DNA from: Emiliania huxleyi CCMP1516
Lineage: Eukaryota
DNA: 63,133 nt
Direction of reading: 5' to 3'
NCBI RefSeq assembly: GCF_000372725.1
Contig: NW_005201259.1
Span: 31,942 to 95,074 of the forward strand
Below the pieces are notes generated by a model that worked only from the letters and a program-made list of their open reading frames with translations, searched no databases and had not been told where the DNA came from. This document shows, piece by piece, positions 13,944 through 17,850 of this stretch. Position 1 is the stretch's first letter, and each line of letters opens with the position of its first letter. Made by a program: the position numbers and the translations under genes.

Positions 13944-15416
13944 CTACTCTTCGTTAGCCGCGGGCGCCTCCGAGCGCTCCGCCGTCTTCTTCTTCATCTC
14001 GGGCGGGTGGCGGTACTCGTTGCACCTGCGCTGCCGGTACGCGTGGCACGCGCCGTCCTTCTTCCAGGCGGGGCAGATGGGCAAACCCTCCCACGATGGC
14101 TGGCGGGGCTTCTTCCCCCCCTTGCTCGCGGTGGGCTCCTTCGCGGCTTGCGCCACGTCCTTCTTCGGCGGCGCAGGCGCCTTTCGCTTGTCCTTGCGAG
14201 CCGCGATGAGCTCGGCGGAAGCCATCGTGGCGACTAGCGCCGCCGTCAGGCTTCCGCGCCGCGCCGAATGCTGCGCGATCAGCTCATTCCAGATGGACCT
14301 CGCATACTCCTCCTGCTGGCTCGGGGCCAGAGGCCCGAGCGCAGCGACGACGCGGTCTACCGCAAGGTCCGCAATCGACGAGTTCAGCGCCGGGGCACGC
14401 TTCTCCGTCTCGCCCGTGCTCGTGTCCATCACGTCGAGGGTCGCCTCGTCGCAGTCGGCGAGTGTGGCGTTCGCCGGCAGCGGGCCCGCGTATGCGATGG
14501 CCAGCGCGAGGAGGGCACTGATGAGGTCTCCCAGTGGCGATTCGCGCCCCTTGGCGACCTCTTGCTGCCGCCCCGCCGCCACCACCTTGGAGAGCTGCGG
14601 AAGGGGCGGCGGAGCCTCGCCGTTGTCATACGGCGAGAAGGCGACTACCATATCCTTGGACGGGAGGTGGTAGGCGTCGCGGGGAGCCGCCCGCTGGGCC
14701 TGCCACCAGACCCGCGCGGAGGCGAACTTCTCGAGGTCCTTCTCCTCCTTTGTACGGGATGGAGCGGGCATCGGGGCAGCCGGCGCCCTGCCTCCGCTCA
14801 CCTCGGTTGGCGTCTGCGGGAGCGTCGTCGAGGAAGAGACCAGCAGGGCCCGCGCCTTCTCCTCCGCCTCGGCGAGGTTGCGGAGTTGCTTGATCAGCTG
14901 GCGAAGCTGGCCCTTCGCCCAGCTGCCGGTCCAATCGACCCCGTCAGATGTCACCTTCCAACCTCCCTCGGGCTCCTCGATGTCGCGGAGCTGGGTCAGG
15001 ACGTCCTCAAGCCACGCGTTGGTGAGCTCTCCGCCCTCATCTTCGAGGGCGGAGAGCTGGCGAGCCGCCGTCTTGGGCTGATCCTCCGTCGTCAGCTCAG
15101 CGGCGCGCTCCGCGAGGATGGCGTACTCGGGCCGGGCACCGTCGCTGCCCATGAGGGCGATCTCGTTTCCCTTCTCTTGCGCCTTGGAGAGGGCGACGAG
15201 CTTCTCTGCGATGGTGGGCGGGTCGTCGTTGCCTGCCTGAGCCATGTTCCGAAGCGCAGCAAGCGTCACTTGTGGGCGTGTTGTGATAAGGAAGGTGGAG
15301 CGCCCTTTATTGAGGTCGTTCTCCGTCCCTCCTTGCTGGATTCTCCGGTCTGCTCTTTCGCCTCTGTTCTGACTTGTACCTCGTCTCAAGCTTCTGAGCT
15401 GCGTTGCGCAGGCCAT
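13944..15416 (-). CDS. Putative gag-like ORF with C-terminal CCCH-type zinc finger (antisense to RT)
   Basis: 490-aa ORF (alternative ATG at 15245), helical and charged, ending in a basic stretch and C-x8-C-x7-C-x4-H (CPAWKKDGACHAYRQRRCNEYRH). The gag role is inferred from context. Confidence 0.65.
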   Translation of the reverse strand: MACATQLRSLRRGTSQNRGERADRRIQQGGTENDLNKGRSTFLITTRPQVTLAALRNMAQAGNDDPPTIAEKLVALSKAQEKGNEIALMGSDGARPEYAILAERAAELTTEDQPKTAARQLSALEDEGGELTNAWLEDVLTQLRDIEEPEGGWKVTSDGVDWTGSWAKGQLRQLIKQLRNLAEAEEKARALLVSSSTTLPQTPTEVSGGRAPAAPMPAPSRTKEEKDLEKFASARVWWQAQRAAPRDAYHLPSKDMVVAFSPYDNGEAPPPLPQLSKVVAAGRQQEVAKGRESPLGDLISALLALAIAYAGPLPANATLADCDEATLDVMDTSTGETEKRAPALNSSIADLAVDRVVAALGPLAPSQQEEYARSIWNELIAQHSARRGSLTAALVATMASAELIAARKDKRKAPAPPKKDVAQAAKEPTASKGGKKPRQPSWEGLPICPAWKKDGACHAYRQRRCNEYRHPPEMKKKTAERSEAPAANEE

Positions 15417-15546
15417 CCCGCTTCTCTTTCTACGAGGAATTTCTTCTTTACGGCGCTTGTTCTATCACGCCGCCACGAAATTTGGTTCTCCGTCCAGGAG
15501 TCCTTGGCCTCTCCCAGCCAGCACGCCTGACGACTCTCGGGCAGCC

Positions 15547-17850
15547 ATGCTGGCACAAGTTCGCGCCGAGCGCGAGCGCATGCGCTCCTCCAAGGTCTAC
15601 ACAAAGTCGCTCGCGATCCTGTCGGCGCTCGCGCTCTGTGTCGGCCACCGTCGGCCGACGGCAGCGGCCGAGCCTTGGGCTCTACAAGCCAAGGCGCGCA
15701 TGCCTCATGATCCGGCCGATTTCCCAGCCGCTCGTGCTGTGGAGGTCGCCTCTCAGATATCTGAGGCTATGGGCATGGTTCACCCCCTCGACCAGCTTCA
15801 CTCGTCCCTGCCGGATGACGTGCGGGCGGCGGCGGAGTGGTTGGTTGCGTCTGGCTCGAACGCTCACAACCTCCGAAAGGGGAGACTCTCCTCGATAGCG
15901 AAGGTTGCGTCTGATCTGCTCGGCTGGTCCACACACTTTGGCGGTTTCTCGCCAGCTCACCTTCGCGAAGCGAAGCCGCCTCTTCCTCATTATGCATTCG
16001 CGTCCTGTGTTGCGGACGCCATTGGATGGCCTGACGAGGGACTCTTTGAGGACCTAGTCCTTGGCGCCCCATGCGTCGGCGGCTGTCCAGACAGCGGTGT
16101 CTTTCGCGAGTACGAGCAGCCTGCCTCGGTGGCGATGGACGAGCTTGCACACGGCGACTGGAATCGCAAGGTCGCTGAGAGCCTCTTCGCTCTCCGTGGC
16201 AAACCCGAGAAGCGACCCGATCTAGTCGCTCTCTGGGATCGGACTCAGAAGGAGGTTACCGATGGTTGGGCGTCTCCCATCGGTTCTGTCGCTTCGATCG
16301 ATGATGTCGCAGAGATCGACGGCCACCTCGGTGGTCGTGAGGCTTGGCGATGCTCGATGCGCTTTGGCGTATGGCAGAAAGGCAAGCTTCGACCGTGTGA
16401 CAACTGTCGTGACAGCCTTCACAATGCTGCTACTTCCCTCTTTGAGCGGCTCGTCACGGACACGGCCGACTTTCCGGCTCGTGCTGCCGCGCTTTTTGCC
16501 GAGTTAGTCGGCGAGGCAGCCTCCTTCTCGATGCTCCTAGGAACCGAGGACATCGAGGCCGCGTATCGACGCGTGCCGTGTAGCCAACCGTGGTACACGA
16601 TCTTCGCCCAGTTGGATCCGTCCACTGGCAGGGTCTTCTTCTTTCGCCTACAAGGCTTCAATTTTGGATTGAAATCGGCCGTCATACAGTTCAATAGACT
16701 CGCCGAGTTTATTTGTCGCGCCTCTGTGAGGCTTCTCCCCGTCGTGGGCTCTCACTTTTTCGATGACTTCGCCATATGCGAGCCCTCGTTTGCGGCCGGC
16801 GGCCAGTTCTTTCTGCGGGAGTTCTCAGCCCTCTTGGGCTTCCCTTTCTCGGGCGCCAACGTGGGCGACGATAAATCGTCATTGGCTGCTCTGGTGAACA
16901 CCTACTTAGGTGTGGTCCACGACTTTAGTTCGTTCTCGACCCGTCGGCTGGTTCGTTGCTCCGTCTCGAGCGCGCGAGTGGAAGGGATTGCTGAGGCGAT
17001 AGATGCCATCTTGGCCGCGGGCTCGTTCGACGGGTCGCGAGGCGCGGCCAAGCTATGCGGTCAGCTCCAGTTCTCAGTGTGCTGGTCTGCCTATCGCTTC
17101 GGGCGTGCCGCCCTCCAGCCCCTGTACAGAGCTGCACAAGGGTCCCGAGGATCCAGCTTCCCAGAGTCGCTGCGTCGCGCTCTTCTCTTCTTGCGCGGGC
17201 TTCTGGCCGACACTAGTGGTCGGTCTCGCCTGCGGCCGAGGACGATCTGTTTGCTTCGGCGGCGACGCCGGCGCAAGCCCGTCCTAGTCTGGACAGACGC
17301 GATGTGGTCGCCCTCCGAGGACGTCCCTGCTCGGATTGGCTTCGTCGTCTTCGTCCCCGACGATGAGGGCGAGGGCGGGTCATGGTACCACTCCTCCCTT
17401 GCCGTTCCGGAGGACTTCATGCGCCTCTTTGCTGTGCGCCTCCAGTACATCGGCCAACTAGAGCTCCTCGCAGCCGTTGCCGTTTACTACTCCATGCCGG
17501 ACGTCTTCCGTGACCGTCGCGTCTTTCACTTCATCGACAACGCGTCGGCTCTCGCGTCCATCGTCAAGGGCTATTCTAGCTCCGATGACTCGGCGCGCGT
17601 CGTCCACAGCTTCTGGGCGCTGGTCAGCGGGCTGTCAGCCGATGTGTGGATGGTCTACGTGCGCTCAGAGGCTAACGTAGCCGATATGCCCTCGCGTGGC
17701 GACCTCTCATACGTCACCGCCGTTCTCGGCAGCGAGGAGCGGCCTACAACCTTGCCGCCCATCGAGTCTTGGGGCTCTGTGGCAGGGGCCCTCGCCGTCG
17801 CTGAGCCTGCTGGCTCCGAGAAGGAGAACGTGAGGCGCCGTCGGCGTTAG
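15547..17850 (+). CDS. Reverse transcriptase-RNase H (DIRS-class pol)
   Basis: RT motifs KLRPCD, EDIEAAYRRVP, FNFGLKSA, HFFDDF and YLG. RNase H motifs WTDA, GQLELLA, FIDN and YVRSEANVADMPSR. First ATG at 15547 in ORF 15457..17850. Confidence 0.93.
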   Translation: MLAQVRAERERMRSSKVYTKSLAILSALALCVGHRRPTAAAEPWALQAKARMPHDPADFPAARAVEVASQISEAMGMVHPLDQLHSSLPDDVRAAAEWLVASGSNAHNLRKGRLSSIAKVASDLLGWSTHFGGFSPAHLREAKPPLPHYAFASCVADAIGWPDEGLFEDLVLGAPCVGGCPDSGVFREYEQPASVAMDELAHGDWNRKVAESLFALRGKPEKRPDLVALWDRTQKEVTDGWASPIGSVASIDDVAEIDGHLGGREAWRCSMRFGVWQKGKLRPCDNCRDSLHNAATSLFERLVTDTADFPARAAALFAELVGEAASFSMLLGTEDIEAAYRRVPCSQPWYTIFAQLDPSTGRVFFFRLQGFNFGLKSAVIQFNRLAEFICRASVRLLPVVGSHFFDDFAICEPSFAAGGQFFLREFSALLGFPFSGANVGDDKSSLAALVNTYLGVVHDFSSFSTRRLVRCSVSSARVEGIAEAIDAILAAGSFDGSRGAAKLCGQLQFSVCWSAYRFGRAALQPLYRAAQGSRGSSFPESLRRALLFLRGLLADTSGRSRLRPRTICLLRRRRRRKPVLVWTDAMWSPSEDVPARIGFVVFVPDDEGEGGSWYHSSLAVPEDFMRLFAVRLQYIGQLELLAAVAVYYSMPDVFRDRRVFHFIDNASALASIVKGYSSSDDSARVVHSFWALVSGLSADVWMVYVRSEANVADMPSRGDLSYVTAVLGSEERPTTLPPIESWGSVAGALAVAEPAGSEKENVRRRRR

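What the first reader, a model, noticed from the sequence alone, without database searches (positions are those of the whole stretch)
13944..15600. Gag-like CCCH ORF is antisense and head-to-head with the RT gene
Seen: a 490-aa minus-strand ORF starting at 15416 (or 15245) and the plus-strand RT starting at 15547 are separated by only ~130-300 bp. Established: gag and pol are normally co-oriented in retroelements. Inference: an internal bidirectional promoter gives ambisense expression, decoupling the RNA-binding protein from the genomic RNA.
Basis: partly seen in the sequence, partly recalled or inferred. Interest (0 to 1): 0.72.

Follow-up and report, generated by a model that had tools for sequence, protein, structure and literature searches.

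The report
Retrotransposon family with backwards Gag gene
This is an intact jumping gene of a marine alga whose likely RNA-packaging (Gag-like) gene lies on the opposite strand, back to back with its reverse transcriptase gene, a layout shared by most of its relatives, so that the packaging protein is likely made from its own spliced message rather than from the RNA that gets copied.

Summary
Confirmed and extended. The ORF belongs to a complete 7.5-kb split-direct-repeat tyrosine-recombinase (YR) retrotransposon, 10705-18174: A1-YR(+)-B1A2-DUF4326(-)-gag-like(-)-RT/RNase H(+)-B2, repeats 100% identical. The minus-strand ORF is a real gene: 28 homologue rows, a conserved C-terminal CCCH finger, dN/dS 0.23-0.53, members in Chrysochromulina and Chrysotila (haptophytes). 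It is antisense and head-to-head with RT in 27 of 31 callable lineages (42 examined); 4 are co-oriented, so orientation changed at least twice. RNA contigs of two studies skip 69 nt just after its stop codon, with GC..AG ends on the minus strand only: evidence of a spliced minus-strand transcript. That splice puts the DUF4326 domain in frame behind the stop; a GT donor 6 nt upstream would remove the stop. Relatives show the same options. A bidirectional promoter is likely but unmapped (weak hint: RNA contigs leave the gap uncovered). 'Gag' is by position and zinc finger only: a confident model of its core matched no known fold. Nearest precedent: kangaroo, which inverts YR, not gag. New variant of a known kind.

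The parts
10705..18174 (.). Whole split-direct-repeat YR retrotransposon copy (about 7.47 kb); no target-site duplication, one shared T at left end, internal junction and right end
10705..10970 (+). Repeat A1 (266 nt, 100% identical to A2)
10971..12896 (+). Tyrosine recombinase ORF (641 aa; conserved part from about 11454) with R..K..H-S-x-H/R..W..Y
   Evidence: ESM Atlas 0.96-0.97 to Phage_integrase clusters; no Pfam or PDB sequence hit
13032..13167 (+). Repeat B1 (136 nt, 100% identical to B2)
13167..13432 (+). Repeat A2; B1A2 is the internal copy of the end-to-end junction
13491..13872 (-). DUF4326 domain exon; no ATG before the conserved GSPFGNP motif; keeps CxC..CH
   Evidence: Pfam PF14216 E 5.7e-16
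13838..13869 (-). 13-bp RNA hairpin at the start of the DUF4326 exon, 5 nt behind the stop in the spliced message; candidate readthrough stimulator (picked after seeing it)
   Evidence: z -3.83, 1 of 200 shuffles
13873..13941 (-). 69-nt GC..AG intron directly after the gag-like stop codon; holds an in-frame TGA. An alternative GT donor at 13947 (75-nt intron) would remove the stop (predicted only)
   Evidence: skip in RNA contigs of X10 and X12
13944..15245 (-). Gag-like (ORF1-like) gene, 433 aa from ATG 15245 (490 aa from 15416): helical N domain, conserved core (aa 160-356), basic linker, CCCH finger
14007..14075 (-). C-x8-C-x7-C-x4-H zinc finger
   Evidence: relatives hit zf-CCCH families, one above the curated cut-off (L068)
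15246..15546 (.). 301-bp gap between divergent start codons; candidate bidirectional promoter; a pyrimidine tract and CAG at 15495-15497 could be a splice acceptor for RT
15547..17850 (+). RT / RNase H ORF (767 aa; FFDD motif; ends soon after RNase H, no methyltransferase or integrase hit)
18039..18174 (+). Repeat B2, right end

Best explanation
This is a complete split-direct-repeat tyrosine-recombinase retrotransposon whose conserved Gag-like gene lies antisense and back to back with the reverse transcriptase gene, and it likely makes the Gag-like protein from its own spliced minus-strand message, started in the 300-bp gap that likely also starts the RT message. Shown: the anatomy, the conservation of ORF and orientation, purifying selection, and a 69-nt skip in RNA contigs with splice signals on the minus strand only. 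Inferred: three messages (YR from A1, Gag-like leftward and RT rightward from the gap) plus a rarer full-length plus-strand RNA from A1 to B2 that would be reverse transcribed; the internal B1A2 junction would template the lost ends and YR would insert the circle at a 1-2 nt core (model for PAT/Ngaro elements). The Gag-like protein would then bind genomic RNA in trans through its basic linker and CCCH finger. A minority of it would carry the DUF4326 domain, by use of the GT donor that overlaps the stop codon or by readthrough of UAG-G before the hairpin.
For: Repeats A and B 100% identical, same layout with both repeats in window, L001/L005 (one locus) and L006. Orientation antisense in 27 of 31 callable lineages. 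dN/dS 0.23-0.53 in 9 of 9 pairs inside the profile-defined family, against 1.44 and 1.76 for two plus-strand shadow frames. Skip 13872-13940 (+/-2) in X10 and X12, two studies; only the placement 13873-13941 has splice ends, GC..AG on the minus strand; contigs of X1, X2 and X3 run through without it. GC donors are the majority in the haptophyte Emiliania huxleyi (PMC4028052, passages). Weak hint for divergent starts: contigs stop at 15280 (X12) and 15272 (X2) with no loose letters and resume at about 15497-15650, while X1 and X3 cross the gap. DUF4326 sits behind the stop in three lineages with dN/dS 0.29-0.39 (3 of 3 pairs): window (either donor keeps the frame), L002 group (GT donor overlapping TAG plus an acceptor 84 nt on gives an open fusion), L001 group (TGA-CTG, in frame without splicing). 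An intron on the minus strand is invisible in a plus-strand genomic RNA, which fits its persistence in DNA copies (inference).
Against: No transcription start was mapped and contigs carry no strand. 6.7% of random 69-nt skips in the element show GT/GC..AG on some strand, and 2 of 4 RNA runs do not show the joint. The X2 RT contig begins at an acceptor-like CAG (15497) with 24 unplaced letters, which fits splicing from elsewhere (the same number of loose letters at 13542 suggests an adapter instead). The fusion-making GT donor was not seen in RNA. The L001/L009 linker after the stop has dN/dS 0.88 on 32 codons, and the divergent pair L048/L059 0.91. The gap sequence looks unconserved by eye across 7 lineages. 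15 of the 27 antisense lineages are one clade, so they are not independent. Four-fold-site skews gave no consistent strand signal.
Confidence: 0.6

Rival explanations
1. Only the Gag-like gene has the internal promoter; RT is made from a plus-strand RNA that starts in repeat A and is spliced to the acceptor at 15497 (as foamy viruses make Pol from a spliced RNA; recalled, no call).
For: Pyrimidine tract and CAG at 15495-15497; X2 contig starts exactly there with 24 unplaced letters, and an X10 contig starts at about 15504.
Against: No joint from A to 15497 is listed in 8 runs (tables cut). The X2 gag contig has the same 24 loose letters at 13542, as an adapter would give. The tract is not apparent in the gaps of 6 other lineages.
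Confidence: 0.2
2. The genomic RNA is the minus strand (B2 to A1), so gag is sense and RT and YR are the antisense genes; the split repeats are symmetric and do not fix the polarity.
For: A...BA...B reads the same way on the other strand (sequence logic); skew analysis did not decide.
Against: The gag intron is efficiently spliced in RNA contigs yet present in DNA copies; minus-strand RNA contigs end near 13441-13540, short of A2; in known split-repeat elements RT is sense from A1 towards B2 (PMC8547959, PMC6681497, passages).
Confidence: 0.1
3. The antisense protein is not a particle-forming Gag but an RNA chaperone or regulatory zinc-finger protein, and antisense transcription mainly throttles the element (dsRNA with the full-length RNA).
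For: No capsid-like match for confident models; CCCH rather than retroviral CCHC finger; one sub-lineage lacks the finger (L041/L043).
Against: It is the only 400-500 aa non-enzymatic ORF in nearly every lineage with enough upstream DNA, has the size and C-terminal basic/zinc-finger layout of YR-element ORF1, and sits in the canonical sense position in 4 lineages.
Confidence: 0.2
4. The minus ORF is a shadow frame of GC-rich DNA, an unrelated insertion, or an assembly inversion.
For: High GC gives long shadow frames here (a 420-aa plus ORF overlaps it).
Against: Homologues, purifying selection, the same orientation in independent assemblies, DNA contigs crossing the gag-RT gap, spliced RNA.
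Confidence: 0.02

Closest known systems
Kangaroo (Volvox carteri) and nematode-form Pat1 elements, PAT group of YR retrotransposons
   Same: [quoted passage not shown]
   Different: Here gag, not YR, is inverted; YR comes first (A1-YR-B1A2-gag-RT-B2, a circular permutation of the Pat1 order); no methyltransferase; a CCCH finger; DUF4326. The original kangaroo and PAT papers were not held.
Ngaro retrotransposons
   Same: Split direct repeats, RT/RNase H, YR, no methyltransferase, 6-8 kb, found in protists (PMC8547959, PMC4157794; passages).
   Different: Ngaro is A1-[gag, RT/RH, YR]-B1A2B2 with the internal repeats downstream of YR near the right end; here they are central, the gene order differs and gag is antisense.
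VIPER / TATE (kinetoplastids)
   Same: Split direct repeats, YR before RT, no methyltransferase; RNase H grouped with hepadnaviruses (PMC6681497, passages), and this RNase H has weak hits to PF00336 (E 0.036 and 0.0078, under the cut-off).
   Different: A1 at 5', B1A2B2 at 3'; CX2CX4HX4C finger in some; the passages read mention no inverted ORF ('strand', 'orientation', 'antisense' 0 occurrences).
SymbioDIRS-Dnmt3 (dinoflagellates)
   Same: Algal split-repeat YR elements that carry an accessory enzyme domain in shifting positions and show shuffled ORF order (PMC5890265, passages).
   Different: Accessory is a DNA methyltransferase in Pol; here DUF4326 is behind gag, inside Pol or at the end of Pol; no gag is discussed there.
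Stop-codon readthrough types II (UGA-C) and III (UAG-G plus 3' structure)
   Same: L001 group has UGA-CUG, the window UAG-G plus a 13-bp stem (PMC3159437, passages).
   Different: Spacer here 5 nt against 7-12 nt in the examples read; readthrough not measured; competes with an alternative splice donor.

Membership tests
YR retrotransposons (order DIRS) | RT and RNase H ORF | tested here: met
   RVT_1 in 7 of 43 members, 8r0s E 0.0017, FFDD motif; RNase H by motif reading and weak PF00336 hits
YR retrotransposons (order DIRS) | Tyrosine recombinase instead of DDE integrase | tested here: met
   ESM Atlas 0.96-0.97, 10 of 10 best named hits Phage_integrase; R, K, H-S-x-H/R, W, Y conserved; no Pfam/PDB hit; no integrase hit in any ORF
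YR retrotransposons (order DIRS) | Split direct repeats or ITR+ICR; no target-site duplication, short shared core | tested here: met
   A1..B1A2..B2; core T (window), TT (L001), TA (L006)
YR retrotransposons (order DIRS) | Gag-like ORF co-oriented and upstream of RT | tested here: not met
   ORF present but antisense; co-oriented in 4 of 31 lineages
YR retrotransposons (order DIRS) | Transposition through RNA and a circular DNA | not testable with these tools
   Circular metagenome contigs (L021, L030, L037, L054) can arise from the repeats alone
PAT-like (Pat1, TOC, kangaroo) | Methyltransferase domain after RNase H | tested here: not met
   No such Pfam hit in 43 RT proteins; ORF ends shortly after RNase H
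PAT-like (Pat1, TOC, kangaroo) | Internal repeat between the RT block and YR | tested here: inconclusive
   Internal repeat separates YR from gag/RT, but the order is permuted (YR first)
Ngaro | A1-[ORFs]-B1A2B2 with internal repeats downstream of all ORFs | tested here: not met
   B1A2 central, 4.6 kb of genes between A2 and B2
Ngaro / VIPER / PAT | Placement in RT, RH or YR trees with reference elements | not testable with these tools
   No named reference sequence was returned; trees (51, 94) hold family members only
Retroviral / LTR-element Gag | Capsid (CA) fold | tested here: inconclusive
   Core model pLDDT 96, pTM 0.92; no family stood out
Retroviral / LTR-element Gag | CX2CX4HX4C knuckle | tested here: not met
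   Finger is C-x8-C-x7-C-x4-H
DUF4326 (rhodanese-phosphatase clade, PMC9503650) | Pfam PF14216 above cut-off | tested here: met
   59.4 bits against 25; enzyme activity not tested

The most novel reading that the evidence does not exclude
A haptophyte-centred clade of retroelements that runs like an ambisense virus: a nucleocapsid protein of a fold not yet described is made in trans from an antisense, intron-bearing gene that reverse transcription cannot strip, and three interchangeable switches at its stop codon (alternative donor, UAG-G readthrough, UGA-C readthrough) dose an ADP-ribose-phosphate-processing enzyme of the kind carried by phages and giant viruses into the particle, as counter-defence.
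Probability: 0.25. Interest if true: 0.85.

Novelty: new variant of a known kind. Interest (0 to 1): 0.64.

Why it matters
Retroelements normally make Gag from the RNA that it packages, which sets the Gag:Pol ratio and favours the element's own RNA. A young, intact family that keeps gag on the other strand across RT divergence down to about 35% identity must solve both otherwise, and offers sense and antisense sister lineages for direct comparison. YR-element ORF1 proteins have no known structure or function in the papers read; this one gives a confident, unmatched model to test. The antisense position also lets a retroelement keep an intron, and the recurring DUF4326 links these elements to the NAD/ADP-ribose conflict toolkit proposed for phages and giant viruses. 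The split-repeat YR mechanism itself is known, and an inverted ORF has a precedent (kangaroo's YR).

Tried and rejected
No whole genome was held, so copy number and empty sites were not examined. Pfam gave nothing for the gag-like or YR ORFs; PDB sequence searches gave nothing for single RT or the YR profile. Fold searches: whole gag model against PDB, BFVD and VIA-wide, 0 matches at E<=0.001, best Z 5.7 on a helical bundle; core domain best Z 4.7 (rmsd 3.2, 88 aligned, a designed repeat protein), 0 of 48,161 chains at Z>=5, and 0 BFVD matches at E<=0.001: absence of a match, not proof of a new fold; the N domain was not folded alone. ESM Atlas for gag: unnamed clusters at 0.91-0.92; nearest named ones Flexi_CP 0.84 and Poty_coat 0.83 are leads under the bar and were not borne out by the fold searches. 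Viral contigs held one weak locus, L080, dropped. Four-fold-site skew did not tell the genomic strand. Hairpins after the stop in L001, L009 and L002 were not significant (z -1.2, -1.2, -0.1). The careful tree did not finish and the one-clade test could not run on the fast tree. Uncovered stretches in RNA contigs (13433-13541 in X2; about 15281-15496 in five runs) are not proof of transcript ends. RT-then-gag or RT-then-YR orders in L015, L024, L027, L046, L049, L054, L065 were set aside as paths through the repeats. The Toxin_5 hit in L037's YR is under the cut-off and taken as chance. Literature: searches found no description of an inverted gag in YR elements; the library lacks most subscription papers, the Poulter/Goodwin reviews were not read and Repbase could not be consulted; supplements were not opened. 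Earlier scan notes held no look-alike.
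Full report
Observation. A frame of 433 aa arose in 1 of 500 base shuffles. No whole genome was held.

The element. Self-comparison shows two perfect repeat pairs: A at 10705-10970 and 13167-13432, B at 13032-13167 and 18039-18174. This is the split-direct-repeat pattern A1..B1A2..B2 of YR retrotransposons (PMC4157794, PMC6681497, PMC8547959; passages read). Between A1 and B1 lies a 641-aa ORF without Pfam or PDB hit but with R, K, H-S-x-H/R, W and Y conserved in a 10-row alignment and ESM Atlas scores of 0.96-0.97 to Phage_integrase clusters. Between A2 and B2 lie DUF4326 (minus, E 5.7e-16), the gag-like ORF (minus) and RT/RNase H (plus; RVT_1 in 7 of 43 relatives; 8r0s E 0.0017). 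There is no target-site duplication; the ends and the internal junction share one T, and TT or TA in L001 and L006. Identical repeats and open frames point to a young copy (inference).

The antisense ORF is a gene. It has a 55% identical homologue and 28 rows at E<=0.001 among 1.84 billion representatives. C391, C400, C408 and H413 are at least 90% conserved in 21 rows; relatives hit zf-CCCH families, L068 above the cut-off. dN/dS is 0.23-0.53 in 9 of 9 pairs inside the profile-defined family, 0.91 for the divergent pair L048/L059, and 1.44 and 1.76 for two plus-strand shadow frames. Of 10 proteins looked up, two gag homologue clusters had named members, from Chrysochromulina parva and Chrysotila dentata, so the family occurs in haptophytes; the window's own host was not identified.

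Orientation across the family. An RT alignment fetched 79 metagenome loci (best 80 of 143 hits kept), which with the window form 42 lineages at 85% nucleotide identity. 11 could not be called (short or ambiguous upstream DNA). Of 31, 27 have the ORF antisense: 15 by a gag profile, 6 by a CCCH finger near the end of a long minus ORF, 2 by a looser finger read by eye, 2 by similarity to one of those, 2 by dN/dS (no finger). Four are co-oriented (L068, L074, L079, and the L075 group); L075's ORF resembles the family core weakly (E 8e-4), L079's only at the finger. The window sits in a clade of 15 antisense lineages (support 97-99), and starred branches force at least two changes of orientation (quick and fast trees; unrooted, 3 short RTs left out of the first). 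The whole A1-YR-B1A2-DUF-gag-RT-B2 layout recurs in L001/L005 (one locus) and L006. Start-to-start gaps are mostly 30-380 bp where computed (11 lineages, two with overlapping first ATGs).

Expression. Contigs of four RNA runs from four studies cover parts of all three genes. In X10 and X12 a contig skips 69 nt at 13872-13940 (+/-2). Only one of the three placements has splice ends: GC..AG on the minus strand, 13941-13873. Contigs of X1, X2 and X3 run through unspliced (kinds not on record, X1 and X3 look like genomic DNA, X2 like RNA). Chance for such ends is 6.7%; GC donors dominate in E. huxleyi (PMC4028052, passages). This is the evidence for minus-strand transcription. Contigs stop at 15280 (X12) and 15272 (X2) without loose letters and restart at 15497-15650, while X1 and X3 cross the gap: a weak hint of divergent starts. 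Against it, the X2 RT contig begins at an acceptor-like CAG with 24 unplaced letters.

The stop-codon switch. The intron holds an in-frame TGA; removing it puts DUF4326, which has no ATG ahead of its conserved motif, in frame behind the TAG, followed after 5 nt by a 13-bp hairpin (z -3.83; chosen after seeing it). A GT donor overlapping the stop would give an open 559-aa fusion (not seen in RNA). In the L002 group a donor overlapping TAG with an acceptor 84 nt on gives an open fusion (one of several candidate pairs); in the L001 group TGA-CTG runs straight into DUF4326. UGA-C and UAG-G are known readthrough contexts (PMC3159437, passages). DUF4326 has dN/dS 0.29-0.39 (3 of 3 pairs), the L001/L009 linker 0.88 on 32 codons. 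Other lineages fuse DUF4326 inside or after RT/RNase H. PMC9503650 (passages) proposes that it removes terminal phosphates from ADP-ribose derivatives in phages and giant viruses.

Is it Gag? Models are confident (whole pLDDT 87, pTM 0.52; core aa 160-356 pLDDT 96, pTM 0.92), but no known fold stood out, and Atlas leads to filamentous-virus coats are under the bar. 'Gag-like' rests on size, basic linker, zinc finger and the canonical position in four lineages, as for other YR elements (PMC6681497).

Mechanism. Most likely three messages and a rarer full-length plus-strand RNA; end repair through B1A2 and insertion by YR follow the published model (PMC7192593, PMC6681497; passages), untested here. 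The plus strand is preferred as genome because the minus-strand intron survives in DNA copies, though intron retention is common in such algae and skews did not decide. Gag would act in trans, which fits YR-less copies (L017, L038: A-DUF-gag-RT-B with unrelated left flanks) and a transcribed relative sharing the ends.

Comparison and novelty. Kangaroo has an inverted YR with central internal repeats; Ngaro and VIPER keep B1A2B2 at the right end. Searches found no inverted gag; one E. huxleyi DIRS/PAT-like sequence was left unclassified in PMC3266345. The original kangaroo and PAT papers were not held, reviews in subscription journals and Repbase were not seen, so prior annotation is not excluded. 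PMC12220804, PMC3783388 and PMC5890265 were read in passages only. Verdict: real, family-wide, a new variant of a known kind; interest 0.64.

Noticed in passing
window 13154-13223 and 17916-18045: A more abundant, transcribed relative shares the B/A junction and the stretch before B but differs elsewhere (same loose ends in several runs; X10 depth 142, X2 contig of 834 nt): candidate short non-autonomous partner.
   Followed up: partly
L017 8017-12694; L038 8002-12715: YR-less, frameshifted copies A-DUF4326-gag-RT-B with one A, one B and precise left ends; unrelated left flanks but the same 30 nt on the right. Could come from A1 x A2 recombination or from integration of a sub-circle.
   Followed up: partly
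L031, L033-L036, L075, L076, L044, L051: DUF4326 is fused after RNase H or inserted between RT and RNase H in these lineages instead of following gag.
   Followed up: partly
L037 4670-6232 (+); L011 298-1185 (-); L048 2-1324 (-); L077 108-1616 (-); L078 237-1700 (+): Extra 300-520 aa ORFs without Pfam hits next to gag; some are shared between lineages (L048/L077, L019/L078) and may be further accessory genes or divergent recombinases.
   Followed up: partly
L010 1-1711: An RT C-terminal part 91% identical to the window's abuts a gag-like piece only 35% identical: a deletion or chimera.
   Followed up: no
L001/L009: RT is 98% identical but gag 81% (dS 0.11 against 0.50), suggesting module exchange between copies.
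   Followed up: no
window 10504-10625 and 18215-18700: Both flanks are very high-copy repeats (summed depth thousands of times the element's in X1, X3); 18523-18945 recurs at 56816-57247.
   Followed up: no
window 22084-23663 and 25477-26681: Actin gene with an intron, and a second 99.4% identical actin stretch ending at an N gap: tandem gene or assembly duplicate.
   Followed up: no
element ends in window, L001, L006: Conserved terminal motifs: B ends in TAGT, A begins with CCG..AACGA; candidate recombinase binding sites.
   Followed up: no
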